From: an uncultured Candidatus Saccharibacteria bacterium
Lineage (GTDB): Bacteria > Patescibacteriota > Saccharimonadia > Saccharimonadales > UBA10212
Length of the DNA stretch: 64,000 nt
Assembly (NCBI GenBank): GCA_964514575.1
Contig: CAZETJ010000002.1
Location: 1,391-65,390 of the forward strand
Direction of reading: 5' to 3'
The notes under the pieces were generated by a model, which did no database searches, was not told the DNA's origin, and saw only the letters and a program-made list of their open reading frames with translations. Numbering within the stretch: the stretch's first letter is position 1; every line of letters begins with the position of its first letter. Position numbers and translations under genes: made by a program. Positions 3,945 through 63,785 of the stretch are shown in pieces.

Positions 3945-4475
3945 ATGAATAAAAAGTTCTGGTGGCTCACAGGTGCCGCTCTAGTCGGCATGTCCAGCAC
4001 GCTCTGGCAGATCATCGAGAAGGTCTCATTACTAAAAAATCCTAAGGTAGCACTTTCCTGCAATTTTAATAGCACCTTTAATTGCTCAGATGTACTTAAC
4101 GCCCATCAGTCTTCTATATTCGGCCCGCCCAATGCCGCGATTGGCTTGGCCGTCTTCAGCTTTTTCTTGGCGATAGGCATAGCTGGTTTGACCGGCTCTA
4201 AATTTGTTCGCAAATTTGCGCTAGCCATCCAAGGTTTGGCCTTATTTATGCTGGGATTCACATTGTGGTTTTTGTTCGAGAGTACCTACCGCATCCACGC
4301 CGTTTGTATCTTTTGCTTATTCATCGGCACATCGGTCTTGGTAATTAACGCCGTGATGCTGAGGCATAACTTTGGCGAACGAATAAAACGCTGGTCCATC
4401 CGCGGAGCTGATCTGTTTGGCTGGGCGCTGGTTTGGCTAATTGTAGCTTTTGCCATGCTCCTAAAATTTGCGTAG
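3945..4475 (+). CDS. Vitamin K epoxide reductase (VKOR)-family membrane protein
   Basis: Loop cysteine pair (SCNFNSTFNC) plus a CIFC redox motif in a TM helix, and 4-5 TM segments. I prefer the ATG at 3945 over the TTG at 3918. Confidence 0.7.
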   Translation: MNKKFWWLTGAALVGMSSTLWQIIEKVSLLKNPKVALSCNFNSTFNCSDVLNAHQSSIFGPPNAAIGLAVFSFFLAIGIAGLTGSKFVRKFALAIQGLALFMLGFTLWFLFESTYRIHAVCIFCLFIGTSVLVINAVMLRHNFGERIKRWSIRGADLFGWALVWLIVAFAMLLKFA

Positions 4476-5473: not shown

Positions 5474-5581
5474 GTGACTCCCTCCCTCGGGGATAGTAGG
5501 TGCGAGTTTTCTGACGGAAAACCATTCCGAGCCGAAACTCGGTTGCGATATTATAACACTAAAGCTTATGTACGTCTATGC

Positions 5582-30511: not shown

Positions 30512-30988
30512 GTGCTTATGCCTGACATCCTGTTGGCCGTAATGGTTTTTGGCCCTTTAGTTATTACTTATTTTTTAAAAAGCAACGCGGCGCTTAGCTT
30601 CTTAGCACTCTGTGTAGGTTTTGTCCTGAGCACCTCAGTAATAGGCGACTTGAAGCACCTACTGAGCGAGACCCATCTTTCGATTGCCAACGACACGCTC
30701 GGAGCAGTTCTTGTGCTGGTGCCGTTTTTGCTGACGCTACTACTTAGCCGGCACGGGCATAGCCGCGGGCCAATGTTCTTCTTCCAACTTCTGGCGGCGT
30801 TAGCCGGCGGCGGCTTGCTTGCATTGTCGCTCGGGCCGCTGCTGACTTCCAGCTCAAGCTTTGATATTACCAACTCTAGTGCTTGGAACGAGCTGACCAA
30901 AGTCCAGGCCGGTGTCATTGGCTTTGGTAGCCTGCTCAGTTTACTGTTAGTCTGGACGCACAGTTACAAGCACACCAAGAAGCACTGA
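30512..30988 (+). CDS. Hypothetical polytopic membrane protein, 158 aa
   Basis: Four or five hydrophobic helices. Confidence 0.55.
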   Translation: MLMPDILLAVMVFGPLVITYFLKSNAALSFLALCVGFVLSTSVIGDLKHLLSETHLSIANDTLGAVLVLVPFLLTLLLSRHGHSRGPMFFFQLLAALAGGGLLALSLGPLLTSSSSFDITNSSAWNELTKVQAGVIGFGSLLSLLLVWTHSYKHTKKH

Positions 30989-31044
30989 TTGATTTTTCGG
31001 GTTAAAAAACAGATAATGTAAGGTGTTAAATTTCCCTATAGTTT

Positions 31045-31163
31045 AACCCAATTTTGCAAATCGGGGGTCTAGTAACCGTTTACAAAATTGAGAGGAGCGA
31101 CATAGCGCTAAGCCGAAGCTTTTACGAAACAGTAAAACGAGGAAAGCGCGTAAGTCGCGACGA
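31045..31163 (+). ncRNA. Structured tRNA 5' leader, copy A
   Basis: P0 31052-60/31079-87; box GAGAGGAG 31090-97; P1 GCGAC 31097-101 / GTCGC 31154-58; TAAGCCGAAGC; P2 31120-25/31132-37; GACGA 31159-63. Confidence 0.6.
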
Positions 31164-31241
31164 GGGCCCATAGCTCAGCCTGGTTAGAGCAGCGGCCTTT
31201 TAAGCCGCGTGTCGTGGGTTCAAATCCCACTGGGCCCTCCA
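31164..31241 (+). tRNA. tRNA-Lys (UUU)
   Basis: Cloverleaf folded by hand. Anticodon loop CUUUUAA. CCA encoded. Confidence 0.9.
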
Positions 31242-31290
31242 CAATAAAATCCAGTCGAGAGGCCGTTTTTAATCGTAAGCGATTAATTTA

Positions 31291-32739
31291 TTGCTCGCTT
31301 TCTGGCATGATGGATTTATGCGCAGGCTTCGGCGGACAACCTTAATTACCGCTGGCTGTTTATCGATCTTGGCTGGTTTGGGCTTAGCCCGCATAGTATC
31401 TTTTTCACCAAGCGACTGGCTGATATTTCTCTGGCCGATAGTATTATTACTTAAACGAAAAAATCTGACAGCCTTATTTCTGGTTGTATTACTCGGCATT
31501 GGCGTGGGTCTATGGCGGGGCACGCTATATATGCAAAAGCTGGGGCAACTCAGGCAGCTGACGGGACAACAGGTGATTGTCCAAGCTATGGCTACTAGCG
31601 ACTCGGTTTATTCGTCGGGCAACCAAATGGAATTCACTGCTAATAAGTCAGTGCTAATACCGCAACAACAACCGTTGGCAGGCTCTTTCAAAATCAGCGG
31701 CTTCGGCGTCCACATGGTTTATCGTGGCGATACAGTAAGAGTCGCCGGTAAACTTTATGCGATGCGCGGCTCAAACCAGGCCCGGATCTCTTACGCGCAG
31801 CTAGCCGTCGTTCAGGCTGGGCACAGTTGGTCTAGTGATTTATCGCGCCGATTCTCAGCGGGCATGCAGAATGCTCTGCCGGAGCCGCAGTCCAGTTTTG
31901 GTATGGGGCTATTGATCGGCCAGCGCATTAATTTGCCAGAACTAATTACGGCCGAACTAACTGCCGTTGGCCTAGTGCATATTGTGGCGGTCAGCGGTTA
32001 CAACCTGACGATCTTGATCCGCGGTGTTCAACGGCTACGACTAAGATCCAAGTACCAACAGTTAGCTGTTTCACTGGTTCTGATCGCTACCTTCATTACG
32101 ATCACTGGTTTTAGTGCTTCAATTGTCCGGGCGGCTTTGGTCAGTTCTCTCAGCCTATGGGCATGGTATTATGGCCGGCGTATCAAGCCGGCTGTACTCA
32201 TTGGTTTCGCGGCAGCTTTGACGGGAATGATTAACCCGTTTTATGTCTGGGGCGATATGAGCTGGTACCTATCTTTTCTGGCGTTTTTTGGCGTTATGAT
32301 TATCGCACCGATCATACAAGCCCGCCTGTTTAAAAAATCTCCCAAAATTCTGACCAGCGTTTTAATTGAAACGCTAAGCGCCGAGCTGATGACTCTGCCG
32401 ATAATTATGTTGAGCTTCAATCAACTATCAATGGTGGCCTTACTGGCCAATGTGATGATAGTACCGCTAGTGCCGGTCGCTATGTTGCTGGCCGCAATAG
32501 CCGGCACGGCCGGTATGCTTATCCCTCAGGTTGCCGGCTGGTTCGCTTTGCCGGCTCGGTTACTTTTGACGTATATGTTAGATATCATTCACCTGCTGGC
32601 TTCGATTCCGTCGGTTCTGATGCATCTATCAATCAGCGTGACCTATATGCTCGCCTTTTATATAGCTGTATTGATGGTTCTTTTAGTTGCTCACAAACAC
32701 ATCAAAAATAAAAAACCGGCTGACTTCGCACGAATTTAA
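31291..32739 (+). CDS. comEC: DNA internalisation competence protein ComEC/Rec2 (membrane channel part)
   Basis: Polytopic, with the GLVHIVAVSGYNLTIL competence-domain motif. Start uncertain (TTG 31291 or ATG 31318). Confidence 0.8.
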   Translation: MLAFWHDGFMRRLRRTTLITAGCLSILAGLGLARIVSFSPSDWLIFLWPIVLLLKRKNLTALFLVVLLGIGVGLWRGTLYMQKLGQLRQLTGQQVIVQAMATSDSVYSSGNQMEFTANKSVLIPQQQPLAGSFKISGFGVHMVYRGDTVRVAGKLYAMRGSNQARISYAQLAVVQAGHSWSSDLSRRFSAGMQNALPEPQSSFGMGLLIGQRINLPELITAELTAVGLVHIVAVSGYNLTILIRGVQRLRLRSKYQQLAVSLVLIATFITITGFSASIVRAALVSSLSLWAWYYGRRIKPAVLIGFAAALTGMINPFYVWGDMSWYLSFLAFFGVMIIAPIIQARLFKKSPKILTSVLIETLSAELMTLPIIMLSFNQLSMVALLANVMIVPLVPVAMLLAAIAGTAGMLIPQVAGWFALPARLLLTYMLDIIHLLASIPSVLMHLSISVTYMLAFYIAVLMVLLVAHKHIKNKKPADFARI

Positions 32740-37390: not shown

Positions 37391-37404
37391 GCTAGAGTAC
37401 GGTT

Positions 37405-37617
37405 GTGGGTGAATCAAAACAAAAACCCGAGGGAACACCAGTCGATCCTGAGGCCGGCCCTGAATATGAGTCAGTCATTGATGTAGTCGCTAGGTCCATC
37501 AGATCTGCCAGAGAAATTATGAGTCCAAAGCCACCGGGCATTGATCGATTGCCGCCTGAGAAACAGGCTGAAATCATGAGGCGCAATCTCAGCCGGCGAG
37601 AAGAACGGGGCTGGTGA
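37405..37617 (+). CDS. Hypothetical 70-aa charged protein
   Basis: ORF only. Confidence 0.35.
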   Translation: MGESKQKPEGTPVDPEAGPEYESVIDVVARSIRSAREIMSPKPPGIDRLPPEKQAEIMRRNLSRREERGW

Positions 37618-37663
37618 ATACTAGCCAGCTAGTGGTCTTTCCATCTGTTATACTGACATCTAA

Positions 37664-37740
<77 letters not shown>

Positions 37741-37765
37741 GCTTAGGCCGTGACTCCAGCTTCCG

Positions 37766-37788
37766 TAAAACAGCGGGAGCTGTTTTAG
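37766..37788 (+). terminator. Hairpin TAAAACAGC ggga GCTGTTTTA
   Basis: 9-bp stem with a T-run, 25 nt after the tRNA. Confidence 0.6.
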
Positions 37789-37963
37789 TTTCAGCTTCCA
37801 CACGTCCTTACGCTTAACAAAACTGGAAGAATCTGCAAGCAGGATCTTCCAGTTTTGTGCAGAACCAGTAGGATGTATCGTTGCTGCTTTTCCATCCGGC
37901 TTATCCTCAAGCCGGATAGGCAGGGAGTTAGGACCACCTGCGGTATCCAGGTGAGGCGCAAGG

Positions 37964-37969
37964 TATAAT
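37964..37969 (+). promoter_or_regulatory. -10 TATAAT, 7 nt before the ATG at 37977 (leaderless-type)
   Basis: TATAAT-tattctt-ATG with no SD. Confidence 0.45.
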
Positions 37970-37976
37970 TATTCTT

Positions 37977-38411
37977 ATGAGGCTGCAGCCGATAAAAATC
38001 AAAAAACACTTTACGACCAGCAATGTGGCGCTTTATATCTTCGCGCTAATCGTGCTGGCTATAACCTGGAGTGGTGTAAAAACCATCCAAAGCAACTATG
38101 AGCTGCAAAAACAGGTATCTGTTCTAAAGCAACAAAATGACGTGACGAGCCTACAGAACCAAACTATCCAGCTCAAAAATCAATATTACGCCACCGACCA
38201 ATACTTGGATTTAGCGGCTCGCCAAGATCTTGGACTGGCAGCACCCGGCGAACAAGTTCTGTTGATCTCTAAAGCTACCGCACTCAAGTATGTTAATACT
38301 TCGATTGCTTCCCAAGTTCAAATTTCAAAAAGTGACACTCGACCGCAATTTATAAAAAATATGGAAGCTTGGCGAGACTTTTTGCTTGGACGAAACGTCA
38401 GTGGCAATTGA
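37977..38411 (+). CDS. Septum formation initiator (FtsB/DivIC-like)
   Basis: N-terminal TM followed by a coiled coil (YELQKQVSVLKQQNDVTSLQNQTIQLKNQ) and YLDLAARQDLGL. Confidence 0.7.
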   Translation: MRLQPIKIKKHFTTSNVALYIFALIVLAITWSGVKTIQSNYELQKQVSVLKQQNDVTSLQNQTIQLKNQYYATDQYLDLAARQDLGLAAPGEQVLLISKATALKYVNTSIASQVQISKSDTRPQFIKNMEAWRDFLLGRNVSGN

Positions 38412-38459
38412 CCAACACCTTAAAACGGGTTAGAATACGAAGCTAGTGCCCTTTGGGGC

Positions 38460-38571
38460 CCCCGCAAAATTTATTTTGTGGGGAGAGGAGAAGCAGCGAT
38501 AAGCTGAAGGAGCGAACAACTGAGACAAGGGTTGGTCGCCTCCGCAAGCTGACAGCTTGCTTCGACGACGA
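38460..38571 (+). ncRNA. Structured tRNA 5' leader, copy E
   Basis: P0 CCCCGCAAAA 38460-69 / TTTTGTGGGG 38474-83; GAGAGGAG 38483-90; P1 GAAGCA 38490-95 / TGCTTC 38558-63; GACGA 38567-71. A TAGAAT -10 lies at 38431-36. Confidence 0.6.
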
Positions 38572-38646
38572 CGCGGGGTGGAGCAGTAGTAGCTCGCATG
38601 GCTCATAACCATGAGGTCGCAGGTGCAAATCCTGCCCCCGCTACCA
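38572..38646 (+). tRNA. Initiator tRNA-fMet (CAU)
   Basis: CGCGGGGTGGAGCAG start with an unpaired 1:72 position (C:U). CCA encoded. Confidence 0.88.
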
Positions 38647-38653
38647 CGAAAAG

Positions 38654-38679
38654 CGCCCGACGCAAGGTCGGGTGTTTTT
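38654..38679 (+). terminator. Rho-independent terminator CGCCCGAC gcaag GTCGGGTG TTTTT
   Basis: 8-bp stem with one G:U pair, plus a T5 run. Confidence 0.75.
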
Positions 38680-38797
38680 CGTGGAGGGGCAGTCTGCACC
38701 TAACCGACAGAGAATTTTAAAATCTTAGTGATTAAGTCAGCGATAAATTCACAGACGCTTTTCTAGCGTGAACTCAGAGTGCCCCCGGCACTCTTCG

Positions 38798-38822
38798 GGT
38801 GCAAATCCTGCCCCCGCTACCA
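38798..38822 (+). repeat. 25-nt exact direct repeat of the tRNA-fMet 3' end (GGTGCAAATCCTGCCCCCGCTACCA)
   Basis: Identical to 38622-38646. Confidence 0.9.
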
Positions 38823-38924
38823 AGCATAAGCATTTTGACCTCTGAGAATAGAGGTCTTTTTGTTTGGCTTATGCTTGCGTAGAAATAATAACTTAATATA
38901 GGATTTAATTAATCGGAGCAAATT

Positions 38925-39356
38925 ATGTTGAGAGAAGATGATAAAAGAGGTTTTGTTTGGGAGTACGAAAGCTGGGCGTTTGGCGGTAATAGGCAGTGGG
39001 CAGAACCAGAGGAAGCAATTTCTGTTGGTGAACGAGTTGGTGAAGAGCTTTTTGATAGATTTGTAGGCGAAGATAGGGACTATGGTGATAGCCCCGAAGT
39101 CCGTGATAGTGCTCATAGGGTATTAGACACAGCACTTGAAGTTGTTGATTATGCAGCCCTTCCAACTGAACGAAGAGCCAATATTTTGCGTGGAGTAATA
39201 AACACACTCGAAAGCACTGGTGCATTAGGGGGCAGACCTGAGTGGGCAAAGGTCCAACCACGAGAGCGAATGTTCGGCAACAATCTTCGTCATGCTATAT
39301 CAACAATACGAAACCTAAGAAATCGACGCCTGAGAAGTGCAAACCCTACCGCCTAG
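38925..39356 (+). CDS. Hypothetical protein, 143 aa
   Basis: ORF in a visibly AT-richer stretch just after the tRNA-end repeat. No motif recognised. Confidence 0.5.
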   Translation: MLREDDKRGFVWEYESWAFGGNRQWAEPEEAISVGERVGEELFDRFVGEDRDYGDSPEVRDSAHRVLDTALEVVDYAALPTERRANILRGVINTLESTGALGGRPEWAKVQPRERMFGNNLRHAISTIRNLRNRRLRSANPTA

Positions 39357-39597
39357 ACACTGACAGGGCTATCTCTCCTAATCTCGTTCACTATCTTCCA
39401 CATAGTTATCAGTTCTCGTTTAACCTGGTTCCATTTCGGCTCTATCACGCCTACCAAGTTTGATTGCAGATAGAGATTGGTTCCAAAACCAGTCTCTATT
39501 TGATTTACCCTCTGTTATGGAAGTTTGAGTTCCGGTCGATTTGATCACATACTCATGCGGACAATGAGCGTATACTAAAGTCACCAAGGAGATTCGC

Positions 39598-39984
39598 ATG
39601 AATAAAGCATTGATGGTAATTATCGCAGTAGTGGTTCTGGCAGTGGGAGGTTGGGTTATTTATGATCGCCATAAGACAAATAGCAATACGAATAATTCAT
39701 CGTCCAATTCGAGCCAATCTGTGACATCGACGGGCGCAATAACTATTAAGAATATGATGTTCACACCCTCTCAAATATCAATTCAAAAAGGCGGGACAGT
39801 TACTTGGACAAACAACGATAGCACTACGCACACGGTAGTCGACGACTTAAGCAATGTCGGCGGACCATCCAGCGGAGATATCCAGCCTGGTTCAACCTAT
39901 AGTTTTACCTTTAATAAAACGGGTTCATTCCAGTACCACTGTAGTATTCACCCGTCTATGCGCGGAACAATAGTCGTTAAATAG
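39598..39984 (+). CDS. Cupredoxin (plastocyanin/azurin-like) with an N-terminal anchor
   Basis: AAGGAG SD. HTV...YHCSIHPSMRG type-1 copper ligand pattern (H, C, H, M). Confidence 0.8.
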   Translation: MNKALMVIIAVVVLAVGGWVIYDRHKTNSNTNNSSSNSSQSVTSTGAITIKNMMFTPSQISIQKGGTVTWTNNDSTTHTVVDDLSNVGGPSSGDIQPGSTYSFTFNKTGSFQYHCSIHPSMRGTIVVK

Positions 39985-40071
39985 GCTCTAGTCTTTCAGC
40001 TCAAATATGCTATCAGATTGAATCAAAAACTCCCTCGAACGAGGGAGTTTTCTGTTAGAAAACGACTAAAC

Positions 40072-40326
40072 TTAGCGATTTTCTTTAGGACGAGCCACGT
40101 CGACCGAGATGGTCCGGCCGCCAAGATCGGCGCCGTTCATGGCTGCTTGGGCAGCTTTGCCTTCTTCTTCGTTTTCGAACTCAACGAAGCCGAAGCCTTT
40201 GCTGCGGCCACTTTCGCGGTCACGGACAACAGTAGCGCTGGCTACAGTACCATGAGCGGCAAAAGCGTCACGAAGCTCTTCATCGGTGGTTGCGAAAGGC
40301 AATCCGCCTACAAATAGTTTGTACAT
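40072..40326 (-). CDS. RRM-type RNA-binding protein, 84 aa
   Basis: RNP2 KLFVGGL and RNP1 KGFGFVEF. Confidence 0.9.
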   Translation of the reverse strand: MYKLFVGGLPFATTDEELRDAFAAHGTVASATVVRDRESGRSKGFGFVEFENEEEGKAAQAAMNGADLGGRTISVDVARPKENR

Positions 40327-40569
40327 TCAATTTTTCCTTAATCTTATTTACTTAGGAACGACCACTTATAGTCTGATTCAGATTCGGCCGGTCCTAACAG
40401 ATCTTCAGGCGCCAATGCTTTATCGAACAGAACAGATAAGATCCTAACTAGCAAGAGTTAACCATAAATCGTTTAATAAAACAACGACCCTATAAAAGAT
40501 TATTGTTGACAAGCATTAGAACTATATATAATCTGAGCTTAGTTCACAAAAAACAAAAAGGAAAAAGTA

Positions 40570-40647
40570 ATGTCAGCGCCACAATTCATAATGCCGCAGA
40601 CCAGTCCTGAGTTTAGCGAGATTGATAAAATCTTGATGAACAGCTAA
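40570..40647 (+). CDS. Possible 25-aa peptide (MSAPQFIMPQTSPEFSEIDKILMNS)
   Basis: A TTGACA...TATAAT promoter about 50 nt upstream and AAGGA 8 nt before the ATG. Confidence 0.3.
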   Translation: MSAPQFIMPQTSPEFSEIDKILMNS

Positions 40648-40663
40648 CGGCTGGCGGTCACGA

Positions 40664-40695
40664 AATAACAGATGCTATACTACATCTGTTATTTT
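40664..40695 (+). terminator. Hairpin AATAACAGATG ctatacta CATCTGTTATT + TT
   Basis: 11-bp stem, 9 nt upstream of tRNA-Met. Confidence 0.5.
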
Positions 40696-40704
40696 AGTTT
40701 GCGA

Positions 40705-40781
40705 GGCAGGGTAGCTCAGTTGGTTAGAGCACAGGACTCATAAGCCTGCGGTCGCGAGTTCGAATCTCGCCCCTGCTACCA
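40705..40781 (+). tRNA. Elongator tRNA-Met (CAU)
   Basis: Cloverleaf folded by hand. Has a G1:U72 wobble and an A31:G39 mismatch. Confidence 0.8.
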
Positions 40782-40913
40782 CGCAAAATTCCGGCTTATT
40801 GAGACAGAATTTTTACGCCAGAAGATTCTTACGTAAAAATTCATGTCTTGACGGCCGGTTTTTGCTTTTCTGCTCGCTTTATCCCCAAAGCTCGCAGGAG
40901 ACCAGGACAGAAA

Positions 40914-58189: not shown

Positions 58190-58340
58190 GACTAGAGTTT
58201 ATACTACCTCAGCGGTTAAAAGGTAAACTTTTGATATATAGCTTTGCGCCGAGAAAACTATTTTTCTACAATGACTGTACTTTCTCGGGCTCTGCATATA
58301 ATTCTCACTTATCGCTCGAATTATAATTACCTCCTAAATA

Positions 58341-58456
58341 AAACCAATTTTGCAAGCTAGGCACCGATGCTTGTAAAATTGAGAGGAGTAACTTAGCACT
58401 AAGCCGAAGCTTTTGATTCACTAACCAAAACGAGGCAAATGCGCAAGTTATGACGA
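58341..58456 (+). ncRNA. Structured tRNA 5' leader, copy B
   Basis: P0 58348-57/58369-78; GAGAGGAG 58381-88; P1 TAACTT 58389-94 / AAGTTA 58445-50; TAAGCCGAAGC 58400-10; P2 58411-30; GACGA 58452-56. Confidence 0.65.
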
Positions 58457-59810: not shown

Positions 59811-59925
59811 TCGTCGGAACTTGCGGTTTTGTCTCGTTTTGCCAAATTGGCAAAAGCTTCGACCTGAACCTATGTTCCTCCTCTCAATTTTACAAGCAGC
59901 AATGCTTGGCTTGCAAAATTGGTTT
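59811..59925 (-). ncRNA. Structured tRNA 5' leader, copy C
   Basis: GAGAGGAG within 59878-88; P1 GGAAC (59878-74) / GTTCC (59820-16); P2 palindrome 59837-55; GACGA 59815-11. Confidence 0.65.
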
Positions 59926-59964
59926 AGACCAAAGACGCCGTAATTGTATCACCAACAGAGGTGA

Positions 59965-60412: not shown

Positions 60413-60460
60413 TCGTCAAAGCACGGCTTAAGCCTATACCGCTCCTCTTAATTCTACAAG
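60413..60460 (-). ncRNA. Minimal tRNA 5' leader, copy D
   Basis: TTGTAGAATTAAGAGGAGCGGTATAGGCTTAAGCCGTGCTTTGACGA followed directly by the tRNA. Confidence 0.5.
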
Positions 60461-60495
60461 GTAGAGAGTACACTGAGAATAGAAAGGGGAGAATT

Positions 60496-60834
60496 ATGGA
60501 TAAAGATTTTTTGGTGGTTACAACCACCACAAACGACATACCAGGCTACAAAATAACCAAAGTCTACGGCGAGGTTTTTGGCCTGATAGTCAGGAGCCGC
60601 AACCTATTTAGTAATATCGGAGCGGGCTTCCGCACGGTTTTTGGAGGAGAAGTTCGTGGCTACACCAAGCTTTTGAGTGACAGCCGCGAGCAGGCCATTG
60701 AGCGAATGTGCGAAGAGGCTAAGTCGAGAGGCGCCAACGCTGTTGTCGCTATGAACTTCGATTCTGGCGGCATGGGCAATATCATGAACGAGGTCGCCGC
60801 TTACGGCACGGCCGTCAAAGTCGAAAAAATCTAA
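60496..60834 (+). CDS. YbjQ/UPF0145 family protein
   Basis: GGGGAG SD. GYKITKVYGEVFG...GGEVRGYTKLL...ANAVVAM. Confidence 0.88.
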   Translation: MDKDFLVVTTTTNDIPGYKITKVYGEVFGLIVRSRNLFSNIGAGFRTVFGGEVRGYTKLLSDSREQAIERMCEEAKSRGANAVVAMNFDSGGMGNIMNEVAAYGTAVKVEKI

Positions 60835-62357: not shown

Positions 62358-62507
62358 TTGCCTCAATAGCTTACCACATATGGTAAGCCCCCTCAATCTC
62401 TCTTAATCCTTACCGAGTGGCTTTAGGTGAGTAGTGATACAATAATTTAATGATCTAGCTACCTCAACTTCACGAAATATATAAAGTGAAATAGAGGAGT
62501 TATTAAA

Positions 62508-63785
62508 ATGGACGATAAACAAGTAGCGGCGCTAATCGCCGGCGAGGAAAAAAGGCAACGTGAGGGCTTAGAGCTAATCCCCTCTGAGAACTATGTCAGC
62601 CGGGACGTGCTCAATGCTTTGGGCAGTGTTTTTACTAATAAATACTCCGAGGGTTATCCAGGCAGGCGTTATTACGGCGGCCAAGACTTTACGGATAAGG
62701 TCGAGACGCTGGCTATCGAGCGGGCAAAAAAACTGTTCGGTGCCGACCACGCCAATGTCCAGCCACATTCCGGGGCGCCAGCTAACATCGCGGTGTATTT
62801 TGCTTGGCTGGAGCCAGGCGACACAGTTTTAGGGATGAGGCTCGACCATGGCGGACACCTGACCCATGGGCATCCGGTTACTACTATGGCCAAACTTTAC
62901 AACTTCGTACGCTACGGTATCAAGGACGTAGAAACTGGCGAGATTGATTACGACGAGATGCGTCGCGTTGCCCTCAAAGAAAAACCTAAAATAATCCTGG
63001 CCGGCTTCTCTGGCTATCCACGCAACTTGGACTACGCTAAGTTCGCTGAAATCGGCAACGAGGTTGGTGCTCTGCTGATGGCTGACATGGCTCACATAGC
63101 TGGCTTGATTGCCGGCAAAGCCCTGCCGAACCCGTTCGATTTTGGGTTCCAAGTGATCACGACTACTACGCACAAAACTCTGCGCGGTCCGCGCGGGGGT
63201 ATGATCTTGACGAAGGGCACGGTTGGCAACCCGCTTAAACCGGTCGAGAAAACGCTAGAAAATCTGCCCACGTTGATTGACCGTGAAGTTTTCCCAGGCT
63301 TCCAGGGCGGCCCGCACATGAACAACACAGCTGCCAAAGCCATAACTTTTGGAGAAGCTCTTAAGCCAGAGTTCAAAACTTACGCTAAGCAAATACTCGT
63401 TAACGCTAAAACACTTGCCGACGAAATGATGAGCCGCGGCTTTAAACTGGTGACTAACGGTACCGACAATCACTTGATCATGGCCGATGTCCACACTAGC
63501 TTTGGGGTAGATGGCAGGGAAGTGCAGGATATTCTTGATAAGATCGGCTTATCCGCAAACTGCAACTCTATACCCAACGATGTTCTGCCGCCGTTTCGAC
63601 CTAGCGGACTGAGGCTCGGCACTCCAGCCATGACTACTCGTGGTTTAAAAGAAAAAGACATGGCCCAAATTGCGCAGTGGATGGCCCAAGCTATCAAGAA
63701 TCGTAAAGACGATAAAATACTTAACAAGTTAAGTAATGAAGTCCGGGAGTTCAGCCTAAAATTCCCATTACCCAGCGACCAGTAA
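62508..63785 (+). CDS. glyA: Serine hydroxymethyltransferase
   Basis: AGAGGAG SD. LIPSENYVS ... TTTTHKTLRGPRGG (PLP lysine). Confidence 0.97.
   Translation: MDDKQVAALIAGEEKRQREGLELIPSENYVSRDVLNALGSVFTNKYSEGYPGRRYYGGQDFTDKVETLAIERAKKLFGADHANVQPHSGAPANIAVYFAWLEPGDTVLGMRLDHGGHLTHGHPVTTMAKLYNFVRYGIKDVETGEIDYDEMRRVALKEKPKIILAGFSGYPRNLDYAKFAEIGNEVGALLMADMAHIAGLIAGKALPNPFDFGFQVITTTTHKTLRGPRGGMILTKGTVGNPLKPVEKTLENLPTLIDREVFPGFQGGPHMNNTAAKAITFGEALKPEFKTYAKQILVNAKTLADEMMSRGFKLVTNGTDNHLIMADVHTSFGVDGREVQDILDKIGLSANCNSIPNDVLPPFRPSGLRLGTPAMTTRGLKEKDMAQIAQWMAQAIKNRKDDKILNKLSNEVREFSLKFPLPSDQ
63715..63737. repeat. Motif family copy 8, AAATACTTAACAAGTTAAGTAAT (inside glyA)
   Basis: Read directly. Encodes ILNKLSN. 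Confidence 0.8.

What the first reader, a model, noticed from the sequence alone, without database searches (positions are those of the whole stretch)
31045..31318. Leader copy A plus tRNA-Lys, reading into comEC without a terminator
Copy A has the longest P0 loop (18 nt), which contains a C:A mismatch. It has canonical P1 and P2 helices.

A TGTTAAATT extended -10 lies at about 31024-31032. After the tRNA-Lys CCA (31241) I see no hairpin with a T-run before the comEC start (31291/31318).

The competence channel gene may therefore be co-transcribed with a leader-controlled tRNA.
Basis: partly seen in the sequence, partly recalled or inferred. Interest (0 to 1): 0.55.

Follow-up and report, generated by a model that had tools for sequence, protein, structure and literature searches.

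The report
Structured leader RNA fused to tRNA-Lys
A roughly 120-base folded RNA sits directly in front of tRNA-Lys and belongs to an apparently undescribed family attached to the 5' ends of many tRNAs and a tmRNA in Saccharibacteria, while the neighbouring DNA-uptake gene comEC appears to have its own conserved promoter rather than depending on the tRNA.

Summary
The sequence features are real. Copy A (31042-31163) is one of five copies in the window of a structured leader that ends exactly at the tRNA 5' end.

With 37 copies, 88% of the proposed pairs form, against 24-44% in shifted controls, and 29 of 33 pairs show compensatory changes. Rfam 15 has no match, and four of five literature searches found no description; the fifth errored.

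Copies occur in Saccharibacteria, one Dojkabacteria and one Peribacteria genome. They precede 20 anticodon types, a tmRNA and an intron-containing tRNA. In tRNA-His the end shifts by one base to keep G-1, which matches the RNase P cut site.

The leader is dispensable for a given tRNA, can lie between two tRNAs, folds independently of the tRNA, and evolves in concert within genomes. Its function is unknown. My best guess is a cis-acting domain excised by RNase P.

The comEC interpretation is mostly not supported. There is indeed no real terminator after tRNA-Lys. However, comEC has a conserved promoter of its own (TTAATT-17-TGgCATGAT, 6 nt before the ATG). In the closest relative tRNA-Lys lies on the opposite strand and has no leader.

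The parts
30989..31017 (+). Most likely promoter of the leader-tRNA-Lys unit: -35 TTGATT (30989-30994), 17-nt spacer, -10 GATAAT (31012-31017)
   Evidence: Consensus scan scores it 9 of 12. TTGAyT-17-GATAAT plus the following rTAAGGTGTTA is invariant in five relatives, with or without a leader and on either strand (alignment A6).
31024..31032 (+). It is present, but probably lies in the initial transcribed region or is a weaker second promoter
   Evidence: The sequence reads as stated. The homologous hexamer is TAATCC in L142 and TAATTC in L149, so the key final T is lost. Extended -10 promoters are otherwise common in this genome.
31042..31163 (+). Leader copy A, full covariance-model match
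   Evidence: 110.7 bits, E 3e-21, model positions 1-124. MFE -35.3 kcal/mol, z -3.2. No Rfam match at E <= 10.
31049..31090 (+). P0 hairpin: stem 31049-31060 / 31079-31090 with the C31057:A31082 mismatch, an inner CGG/CCG helix (31062-31064 / 31076-31078) and an 11-nt apical loop
   Evidence: Fold. P0 has 10 of 10 pairs with compensatory changes and 91.8% of cells paired.
31091..31097 (+). AGAGGAG, a single-stranded Shine-Dalgarno-like heptamer; its last G closes P1
   Evidence: Invariant in 38 of 39 aligned copies, partly because the search pattern required it. It is kept in the pattern-independent Met2 and Gly copies. The same heptamer serves as a true SD 8 nt before the ATG at 62508.
31097..31158 (+). 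Long interrupted stem: P1 (31097-31101 / 31154-31158), P1b (31105-31108 / 31146-31149), P1c (31112-31114 / 31141-31143), purine loop GAA (31115-31117) facing GA (31139-31140), and P2 (31118-31125 / 31132-31138)
   Evidence: Folds. Covariation: helix 2 has 10 of 11 pairs with double changes, helix 3 has 2 of 3, helix 4 has 4 of 6.
31159..31163 (+). GACGA, the conserved last five bases of the leader; the inferred RNase P cut is 31163/31164
   Evidence: It abuts tRNA +1 in most copies and the first base of a tmRNA. In tRNA-His copies it abuts G-1 instead.
31164..31241 (+). tRNA-Lys (anticodon UUU) with encoded CCA
   Evidence: ARAGORN; Rfam RF00005, 71.4 bits.
31257..31270 (+). GAGAGGCCG followed by T5: by eye, the apparent remnant of a terminator 3' half
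   Evidence: My reading of raw sequences. Relative L150 has the intact hairpin GCTGACC...GGTCGGC plus T5 at the same place. No stable stem forms here.
31269..31286 (+). Weak AT-rich hairpin TTAATCG-TAAG-CGATTAA, followed by TTTATTG; not a credible terminator, and it overlaps the comEC -35 region
   Evidence: Centroid -4.8 kcal/mol, z -0.28, with 64 of 200 shuffles folding as well.
31283..31311 (+). comEC's own promoter: -35-like TTAATT (31283-31288), 17-nt spacer, TG (31303-31304), -10 CATGAT (31306-31311). The ATG follows 6 nt later, so the mRNA is probably leaderless
   Evidence: Conserved in 8 of 8 aligned relatives whatever the position or strand of tRNA-Lys (alignment A5; raw sequences). 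The 17-nt spacing is my count on those raw sequences; in A5 itself the -35 hexamer is diverged in L144. Many genes in the window have a -10 box 6-9 nt before the ATG and no SD.
31318..32739 (+). comEC (473 aa; Competence domain only)
   Evidence: Pfam PF03772, E 2e-39. Gene callers in six metagenome assemblies start it at this ATG.
58338..58456 (+). Paralogous leader in front of tRNA-Pro(UGG)
   Evidence: 104.8 bits.
59811..59928 (-). Paralogous leader in front of tRNA-His; GACGA is followed by G-1
   Evidence: 118 bits; sequence.
38453..38571 (+). Divergent leader in front of an initiator-like tRNA-Met; it ends in GACGACGA
   Evidence: 29.2 bits, E 2e-4. Same overall fold, z -4.5.
60413..60503 (-). 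Truncated leader in front of tRNA-Gly(UCC): AGAGGAG and GACGA are kept, P2 and the P1 3' strand are deleted
   Evidence: 19.4 bits, E 0.025; alignment.

Best explanation
Copy A is one member of a previously undescribed family of structured 5' leader domains on pre-tRNAs and pre-tmRNA in Saccharibacteria and a few other CPR bacteria.

Proposed course of events:
1. The unit is transcribed from TTGATT-17-GATAAT (30989-31017).
2. The nascent RNA folds into two rigid hairpins. P0 is followed by an exposed Shine-Dalgarno-like AGAGGAG. The long P1-P2 stem is followed by GACGA.
3. RNase P cuts between A31163 and G31164, releasing mature tRNA-Lys and the roughly 140-nt leader.

Proposed function (inferred): the leader acts in cis on the precursor. 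It serves as a handle that sets how the precursor is stabilised or presented for 5' processing. AGAGGAG may bind the 16S rRNA 3' tail or another pyrimidine-rich partner, in the manner of a 5' stabiliser. GACGA forms the cleavage-site context for the diverged RNase P of these bacteria.

comEC is a separate transcription unit. It has its own extended -10 promoter (31283-31311) and probably a leaderless mRNA starting at the ATG at 31318. Because the tRNA terminator has decayed in this genome, some read-through may add to comEC transcription, but this is incidental.

Shown: the family, its structure, its boundary at the tRNA 5' end, its distribution and dispensability, and both conserved promoters. 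Inferred: RNase P cleavage itself, action in cis, and the roles of AGAGGAG and GACGA.
For: Structure:
- On a MAFFT alignment not fitted to the structure, 33 pairs are 88.4% paired, against 24-44% when partners are slid.
- 29 of 33 pairs show compensatory changes, and 0 of 500 shuffles reach the observed values.

Family:
- The model gives 85-126 bits for Saccharibacteria copies and at most 24 bits for about 90 chance pattern hits in other phyla. It gives nothing for 15 viral pattern hits.
- It finds copies that do not match the search pattern (L074b, L049b, L118b, L144, L145, Met2, Gly).

Boundary:
- GACGA abuts +1 of tRNAs with 20 anticodons.
- It abuts the first base of a tmRNA: leader ends at L025:5546 and RF00023 starts at 5547.
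- It precedes a tRNA carrying a group I intron.
- In tRNA-His it abuts G-1. Bacterial RNase P is known to cut at that position (established knowledge).

Cis-type behaviour:
- There is one copy per gene with different helix sequences, it folds as a module independent of the tRNA, and it occurs between two tRNAs only 4-28 nt after the upstream one.

AGAGGAG:
- It is a working SD in this genome.

RNase P background:
- CPR RNase P RNAs are diverged, and two thirds lack the CCA-binding motif (PMC8172020).

Promoters:
-.
Against: - The leader is dispensable for a given tRNA. tRNA-Lys has it in the window, L144, L145, L037 and L050, but lacks it in L142 (ComEC 88% identical) and in L146-L152 and L155.
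- Only 36 of 73 tRNAs in leader-bearing sources carry it.
- Copies are more alike within a genome (72%, up to 91%) than in front of the same tRNA across genomes (56%). That is unusual for cis-regulators and fits a multi-copy RNA gene or a spreading element.
- Two orphaned copies no longer joined to a whole tRNA still score 110-119 bits.
- No RNase P RNA, 16S rRNA or transcript data were available, so no partner has been shown.
- The invariance of AGAGGAG, GAAGC and GACGA is partly an ascertainment effect of my search pattern.
Confidence: 0.45

Rival explanations
1. The excised leader is itself the product. It would be a multi-copy small RNA of about 115-140 nt whose ends are made by tRNA-processing enzymes, with RNase P making the 3' end. 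This is the logic of MALAT1-mascRNA or plant tRNA-snoRNA transcripts. It would act in trans, for example through its exposed AGAGGAG.
For: - Many redundant copies per genome, and loss of single copies is tolerated.
- Concerted evolution within genomes, as seen for multi-copy RNA genes.
- Leaders flanked by tRNAs on both sides would be released with defined ends.
- Orphan copies remain intact.
- Conserved internal loops and partly sequence-conserved helices suggest a bound partner.
Against: - Helix sequences differ between copies of one genome, so the products would be heterogeneous.
- Conservation runs right up to the cleavage site, and the strict abutment to the cut is most simply read as a cis requirement.
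- Truncated forms keep only the two single-stranded blocks next to the tRNA.
- There is no expression evidence.
Confidence: 0.28
2. One reading: a leader-controlled tRNA-Lys whose transcript continues into comEC, so the competence channel is expressed as part of a regulated tRNA operon.
For: - The tRNA and comEC are on the same strand with a 76-nt gap and no canonical terminator.
- Adjacency of tRNA-Lys and comEC is conserved in 12 of 12 relatives.
Against: - comEC has a conserved promoter of its own in 8 of 8 relatives, with leaderless-mRNA geometry.
- tRNA-Lys is on the opposite strand in L142, L146-L149 and L154.
- L150 has a real terminator in between.
- The leader is absent in every relative where the tRNA lies within about 100 nt of comEC.
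- The leader has no switchable element.
- In L037 the tRNA is followed by a strong terminator and mobile genes.
Confidence: 0.1
3. A selfish or passively spreading sequence module. It would be copied between tRNA upstream regions by gene conversion or an RNA-level process, and tolerated because RNase P removes it.
For: - Within-genome similarity reaches 91% in front of unrelated tRNAs.
- Distribution is patchy, with gain or loss between close relatives.
- Truncated and orphaned copies exist.
- In the pairs I read by eye, the repeated unit seems to start near the transcription start and end exactly at tRNA +1.
Against: - Long-term purifying selection on the structure, with many compensatory changes, and on about 35 unpaired bases across three CPR lineages.
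- No target-site duplications, no associated transposase or reverse transcriptase, and none on viral contigs.
- The Lys copies of the window and L144 share the variable P1 sequence and the flanking genes, which indicates vertical descent.
Confidence: 0.1
4. A new self-cleaving ribozyme that cuts at its own 3' end, freeing the tRNA 5' end without RNase P.
For: - Highly conserved purine-rich strands (AGAGGAG, GACGA) flank the base of P1 right at the cleavage site.
- There is no sequence requirement 3' of the cut.
Against: - No match to any ribozyme family in Rfam at E <= 10.
- The products would be a 5'-OH tRNA, which is not the normal mature end.
- CPR retain RNase P RNA (PMC8172020).
- Half of the tRNAs have no such leader.
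- No known ribozyme class cuts at its extreme 3' end without pairing to the downstream sequence (own knowledge).
Confidence: 0.05
5. A ligand- or protein-sensing regulatory leader (riboswitch-like) that tunes stable-RNA output.
For: - Conserved unpaired nucleotides in internal loops.
- Its position on stable-RNA genes that are usually under growth-rate control.
Against: - No terminator, anti-terminator or sequestering alternative structure.
- It folds independently of the tRNA.
- It is rod-like rather than a junction or pseudoknot architecture.
- It can sit in the middle of a transcript.
Confidence: 0.07

Closest known systems
Ordinary bacterial pre-tRNA 5' leaders removed by RNase P
   Same: It lies between the promoter (or an upstream tRNA) and tRNA +1. 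It ends exactly at the mature 5' end, and at G-1 for tRNA-His. It also precedes tmRNA, another RNase P substrate.
   Different: Ordinary leaders are short, unstructured and not conserved. This one is about 115 nt, has 33 covarying base pairs and about 35 conserved unpaired bases, and is shared by 20 different anticodon types.
RNase P-defined 3' ends of upstream RNAs (MALAT1/MEN-beta with mascRNA; plant tRNA-snoRNA dicistrons; mitochondrial tRNA punctuation)
   Same: A structured RNA lies immediately 5' of a tRNA or tRNA-like element, so the RNase P cut creates its 3' end. Some copies are flanked by tRNAs on both sides.
   Different: Those are eukaryotic or organellar cases with a single defined product. 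Here there are many non-identical copies per bacterial genome, and no evidence yet that the released RNA is stable.
STAB-SD and other 5' stabilisers of Gram-positive mRNAs (for example the cryIIIA leader and the ermC leader)
   Same: A 5'-proximal hairpin plus a Shine-Dalgarno-like sequence that is complementary to the 16S 3' tail and has no start codon at working distance.
   Different: Those protect mRNAs. Here the downstream RNA is a tRNA or tmRNA. The long P1-P2 stem and GACGA have no counterpart, and some copies are not at the transcript's 5' end.
T-box leaders
   Same: A long irregular hairpin with conserved internal loops in a leader RNA functionally linked to tRNA.
   Different: T-boxes lie upstream of aminoacyl-tRNA synthetase and amino-acid genes. 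They read a tRNA in trans and end in a terminator/antiterminator switch. None of this is present, and Rfam's T-box model does not match.

Membership tests
Any Rfam 15 family (4227 models, including all ribozyme, riboswitch and leader families) | Covariance-model match to the leader | tested here: not met
   Only the tRNA itself matches in 30950-31350 at E <= 10. Only tRNAs match in the whole window at the gathering threshold and at E <= 0.1.
The new tRNA 5'-leader family defined here (model R1) | P0 hairpin, AGAGGAG, interrupted P1-P1b-P1c-P2 stem, GACGA, then tRNA +1 | tested here: met
   Copy A scores 110.7 bits over model positions 1-124. All elements were located by coordinates.
RNase P substrate leader | The leader's 3' end coincides with the RNase P cleavage site of a tRNA-like substrate | tested here: met
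   0-nt gap to tRNA +1 in most copies; G-1 retained for His; tmRNA start at L025:5547.
RNase P substrate leader | Actual cleavage by RNase P | not testable with these tools
   This needs an enzymatic assay or 5'/3' end mapping.
   TTAATT-17-TGgCATGAT, 6 nt before the ATG, is conserved in 8 of 8 relatives. This is comparative evidence, not experimental.
   tRNA-Lys is on the opposite strand in L142, L146-L149 and L154.
Transcription-attenuation leader or riboswitch | An expression platform: a terminator/antiterminator or an alternative pairing with the downstream RNA | tested here: not met
   No terminator-like site in 30800-31600. Leader and tRNA fold independently in 9 of 10 co-folds.
T-box | Specifier loop, T-box sequence and antiterminator, located upstream of aminoacyl-tRNA synthetase or amino-acid genes | tested here: not met
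   No Rfam T-box hit. The downstream gene is a tRNA or tmRNA in every intact copy.
Known self-cleaving ribozyme classes | Match to the hammerhead, HDV-like, twister, twister-sister, pistol, hatchet, hairpin or glmS models | tested here: not met
   No hit at E <= 10. Self-cleavage activity itself was not testable.
STAB-SD-type 5' stabiliser | An SD-like sequence complementary to the 16S 3' tail, with no start codon at working distance | tested here: inconclusive
   AGAGGAG is used as a real SD at 62493, and no ATG, GTG or TTG follows it in the leaders.

The most novel reading that the evidence does not exclude
The leader is an autonomous RNA module rather than a passive spacer. It would be either a multi-copy small RNA manufactured by tRNA-processing enzymes, or a new catalytic or mobile RNA that attaches itself to the 5' ends of RNase P substrates and homogenises within genomes. 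Either way it would add a new layer to stable-RNA biology in the reduced CPR bacteria.
Probability: 0.35. Interest if true: 0.85.

Novelty: categorically new. Interest (0 to 1): 0.6.

Why it matters
- **New RNA class.** Conserved, structured domains fused to the 5' ends of many different tRNAs and of tmRNA have not been described in bacteria, as far as Rfam 15 and the searchable literature show. Saccharibacteria and their relatives have tiny genomes and unusual, reduced RNase P RNAs. A leader family carried by about half of their tRNA genes points to an unrecognised step in how these organisms make or control their translation machinery.
- **Annotation tool.** The covariance model gives a ready marker for finding these elements in CPR genomes.
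- **Ready for experiment.** The inferred cut site and the short, conserved single-stranded blocks make the system directly testable.
- **comEC.** The ordinary reading is the useful result. The competence channel gene has its own promoter and probably a leaderless mRNA, so it should not be annotated as part of a tRNA operon.

Tried and rejected
- **Rfam at permissive thresholds**, on the locus and on the whole window: only tRNAs. No RNase P RNA is in the window, so I could not test complementarity of AGAGGAG to it.
- **Literature searches** (one search failed on syntax): no description of the motif. The only useful paper concerned diverged CPR RNase P RNA.
- **Viral contigs**: 15 pattern matches, all chance.
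- **K-turn, loop E, T-loop and 11-nt tetraloop-receptor readings** of the internal loops: considered by eye and none fits cleanly, so I make no claim.
- **Alternative pairing between P0 and P2** (both are U4/A4-rich): rejected. Copies with a GC-rich P2 (L049, L110) keep the AU-rich P0.
- **Leader peptide after AGAGGAG:** rejected. There is no start codon, and loop lengths vary out of frame.
- **DNA operator reading of the P0 palindrome:** rejected. The spacing varies and G-U pairs are strand-specific.
- **IS200/605-like or guide-RNA reading** (scaffold plus tRNA stub in the orphan copies): no fixed flanking target and no associated gene, so I dropped it.
- **ARAGORN** missed the tmRNA and the intron-containing tRNA behind two leaders. 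Rfam resolved them.
- **Search pattern:** The distribution is therefore a lower bound, and the invariance of the pattern blocks is partly built in.
Full report
**1. What is at the coordinates**

- tRNA-Lys(UUU) occupies 31164-31241, with its CCA encoded.
- The 120 bases before it fold into two hairpins (MFE -35.3 kcal/mol, z -3.2).
- P0 has its stem at 31049-31060 / 31079-31090, with a C31057:A31082 mismatch. It encloses 18 nt, of which CGG/CCG pair again.
- The single-stranded heptamer AGAGGAG follows at 31091-31097.
- Next comes a long interrupted stem: P1 31097-31101 / 31154-31158, P1b 31105-31108 / 31146-31149, P1c 31112-31114 / 31141-31143, a GAA/GA purine loop, and P2 31118-31125 / 31132-31138.
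- GACGA (31159-31163) closes the leader and touches G+1 of the tRNA.

The one correction is that the C:A mismatch is in the P0 stem, not in the loop.

**2. It is a family, and the structure is real**

The window holds five copies:

| tRNA | Coordinates | Score | Note |
|---|---|---|---|
| His | 59811-59928 (-) | 118 bits | |
| Lys | 31042-31163 | 110.7 bits | copy A |
| Pro-UGG | 58338-58456 | 104.8 bits | |
| initiator-like Met | 38453-38571 | 29.2 bits | divergent |
| Gly-UCC | 60413-60503 (-) | 19.4 bits | truncated; keeps AGAGGAG and GACGA |

tRNA-Met1, Met3, Pro-CGG and Arg have no leader.

A pattern built from the unpaired blocks was scanned over one genome per prokaryotic species. About 33 hits were true copies. 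All true copies came from Saccharibacteria/Saccharimonadia MAGs, plus one Dojkabacteria and one Peribacteria MAG.

I counted the proposed 33 pairs on a MAFFT alignment of 37 copies that was not fitted to any structure:
- 88.4% of cells are paired, against 24-44% when partners are slid by 1-3 columns.
- 29 of 33 pairs carry compensatory double changes.
- None of 500 shuffles reaches the observed values.

A covariance model built from this alignment separates the family cleanly. True copies score 85-126 bits, with the Dojkabacteria, Peribacteria and one divergent copy at 34-52 bits. The roughly 90 chance pattern hits in other phyla score at most 24 bits. All 15 viral-contig pattern hits fail.

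The model also recovers copies that do not match the pattern (L074b, L049b, L118b, L144, L145, Met2, Gly). These carry small deviations such as AGAGGAC or GUUGAAGC. So the conserved blocks are strongly conserved but not absolutely, and part of their apparent invariance in my set comes from how the set was collected.

**3. Not a known family**

Rfam 15 gives nothing but the tRNA at E <= 10 across 30950-31350. It gives nothing but tRNAs across the window. Four full-text literature searches found no description; a fifth attempt errored.

**4. Where the leader sits**

- In nearly every intact copy, GACGA abuts the first base of a tRNA. The copies cover 20 different anticodons.
- In a few copies the end reads GACGACGA.
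- In tRNA-His copies, GACGA is followed by the encoded G-1. The boundary therefore tracks the RNase P cut rather than position +1. The cut position in pre-tRNA-His is established knowledge.
- One leader ends at L025:5546 and a tmRNA (RF00023) starts at 5547. Another precedes a tRNA that carries a group I intron.

The common denominator is an RNase P substrate.

- Leaders are not confined to transcript 5' ends. L118 reads leader, tRNA-Ala, 17 nt, leader, tRNA-Ile, terminator. L088, L069 and L105 have a leader 4-28 nt after an upstream same-strand tRNA.
- Two copies in genome CP064992 are orphans. They are followed by only a roughly 20-nt tRNA 5' stub, and the intact tRNA downstream has a new promoter.
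- In co-folds, leader and tRNA behave as independent modules in 9 of 10 cases, so there is no structural switch.

**5. Evolutionary behaviour**

- Only 36 of 73 tRNAs in the leader-bearing sources carry a leader. The same isoacceptor may have it in one genome and lack it in another.
- Copies within one genome, in front of unrelated tRNAs, are on average 72% identical and up to 91% (Lys-CUU against Ser-GCU in one MAG). Copies in front of the same tRNA in different genomes average 56%, and the background is 58%. The family therefore evolves in concert within genomes.
- The Lys copy nevertheless has orthologues. RimK and a small membrane protein precede leader-tRNA-Lys in the window, L037, L050 and L144. 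The window and L144 copies share the otherwise variable P1 sequence GCGAC/GUCGC.

**6. The promoter**

A stronger candidate lies 12 nt upstream: TTGATT-17-GATAAT at 30989-31017.

In five relatives this promoter and the following rTAAGGTGTTA are invariant, with or without a leader and on either strand.

Either way the whole leader is transcribed. Without start-site mapping, the two candidates cannot be separated with certainty.

**7. comEC**

The ORF is a ComEC with only the Competence domain. Gene callers start it at 31318.

The 76-nt spacer has no terminator. Its only hairpin is worth -4.8 kcal/mol (z -0.3). The terminators after tRNA-Met2 and after the L037 tRNA-Lys reach -36 and -24 kcal/mol (z about -6). 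By eye, the run GAGAGGCCG-T5 (31257-31270) looks like the 3' half of the intact terminator seen at the same place in L150.

I then fetched 15 ComEC relatives from metagenomes, at 48-91% identity. tRNA-Lys(UUU) is next to comEC in all 12 that include upstream sequence, but in every possible arrangement:

| Arrangement | Loci |
|---|---|
| Opposite strand, about 100 nt away, no leader | L142 (closest, 88%), L146-L148, L149 |
| Same strand, 83-98 nt away, no leader | L150/L155 (terminator in between), L151/L152 |
| Same strand with leader, 1.4-1.8 kb away | L144 (two genes in between), L145 |
| Opposite strand, 1.2 kb away | L154 |

In all eight aligned cases the 50 nt before comEC are conserved. 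By my count on the raw sequences, they read TTAATT, 17 nt, TGn, CAtgAT, then 6-11 nt to the ATG. In the window this is 31283-31311, and the ATG follows 6 nt later.

Many genes in the window show the same geometry, with a -10 box 6-9 nt before the ATG and no SD. Leaderless mRNAs therefore seem common here.

It is supported by comparison, not by experiment. Read-through from the tRNA may still occur in this genome, but it is not a conserved arrangement and comEC does not depend on it.

**8. How the leader most likely works**

Shown:
- a modular, covarying RNA domain whose 3' end is the RNase P cut of tRNAs and tmRNA;
- an exposed heptamer identical to a working SD of this genome (62493, 8 nt before the ATG of a 425-aa gene);
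- dispensability for a given tRNA, internal positions, concerted evolution and decay products.

Inferred:
- RNase P removes the leader.
- It acts in cis on the precursor as a handle for stability or processing.
- AGAGGAG binds a pyrimidine-rich partner. From general knowledge, the 16S 3' tail CUCCUUU would give 7 pairs, as in STAB-SD stabilisers.
- GACGA sets the cleavage-site context for an RNase P that in CPR is diverged and often lacks the CCA-binding motif (PMC8172020).

I give this 0.45.

The main rival, at 0.28, is that the released leader is itself a multi-copy small RNA made by tRNA punctuation. That would better explain the concerted evolution, the tolerated losses and the intact orphans.

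Other rivals are a spreading or selfish module (0.10), a ligand- or protein-sensing leader (0.07) and a new 3'-cutting ribozyme (0.05). None is excluded.

**9. Verdict**

The operon interpretation is largely wrong. The leader itself is a strongly supported, apparently undescribed RNA family whose function remains open.

Noticed in passing
window 38798-38822 (and 38622-38646): An exact 25-nt duplicate of the 3' end of tRNA-Met2 lies 176 nt downstream of the gene, like an attachment-site repeat left by an integrating element. In another strain (L001), a serine recombinase gene lies just after the Dus gene in this neighbourhood.
   Followed up: no
window 109, 5733, 7748, 12873, 36907, 51503, 51553, 54960, 63716 (about 27 nt each): A near-perfect 22-bp palindrome, AATACTTAACTAGTTAAGTATT, occurs about ten times across the window (family D1). 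It may be an operator for a global regulator or a dispersed repeat.
   Followed up: no
window, many gene starts (for example upstream of 33432, 35356, 47076): Many ORFs have a TATAAT-like box ending 6-9 nt before the ATG and no Shine-Dalgarno sequence. This suggests that leaderless mRNAs are common in this genome. A minority have strong SDs such as AAGGAGG or AGAGGAG.
   Followed up: partly
L064:2914-3203 and L108:7536-7835 (both from genome CP064992): Two intact-looking leaders are each followed by only a roughly 20-nt tRNA 5' stub. An insert with a new TACAAT promoter and an intact tRNA follows. In L064 the stub duplicates the first 22-23 nt of the downstream tRNA-Gly.
   Followed up: partly
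L074:7369-7498 (+): A typical P0 hairpin is followed by TAAGGAGG and a long perfect hairpin. It scores 28 bits with the leader model but runs antisense into tRNA-Gly(UCC). It is a diverged or re-used leader fragment.
   Followed up: no
L037:3849-6477: Downstream of the orthologous tRNA-Lys there is a repeat of the tRNA 3' end (about 4005-4027), then a C39-like peptidase, a Phd/YoeB toxin-antitoxin pair and a DDE transposase. tRNA-Lys appears to be an integration hot spot.
   Followed up: partly
L125:4624-4846: The tRNA behind this leader carries a group I intron (RF00028, 74 bits) and is missed by ARAGORN.
   Followed up: no
L049:1957-2089: Between tRNA-Gly(UCC) and tRNA-Arg(UCU) there is the start of another P0-like sequence (CCAATTTTGCAAAAAC) about 60 nt before the Arg gene. 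It is possibly a shortened leader. In the window the same two tRNAs are only 1 nt apart.
   Followed up: no
window 37391-40913: A 3.5-kb stretch has three tRNA-Met genes and only short ORFs (144 aa or less). No Rfam family other than tRNA matches there.
   Followed up: partly
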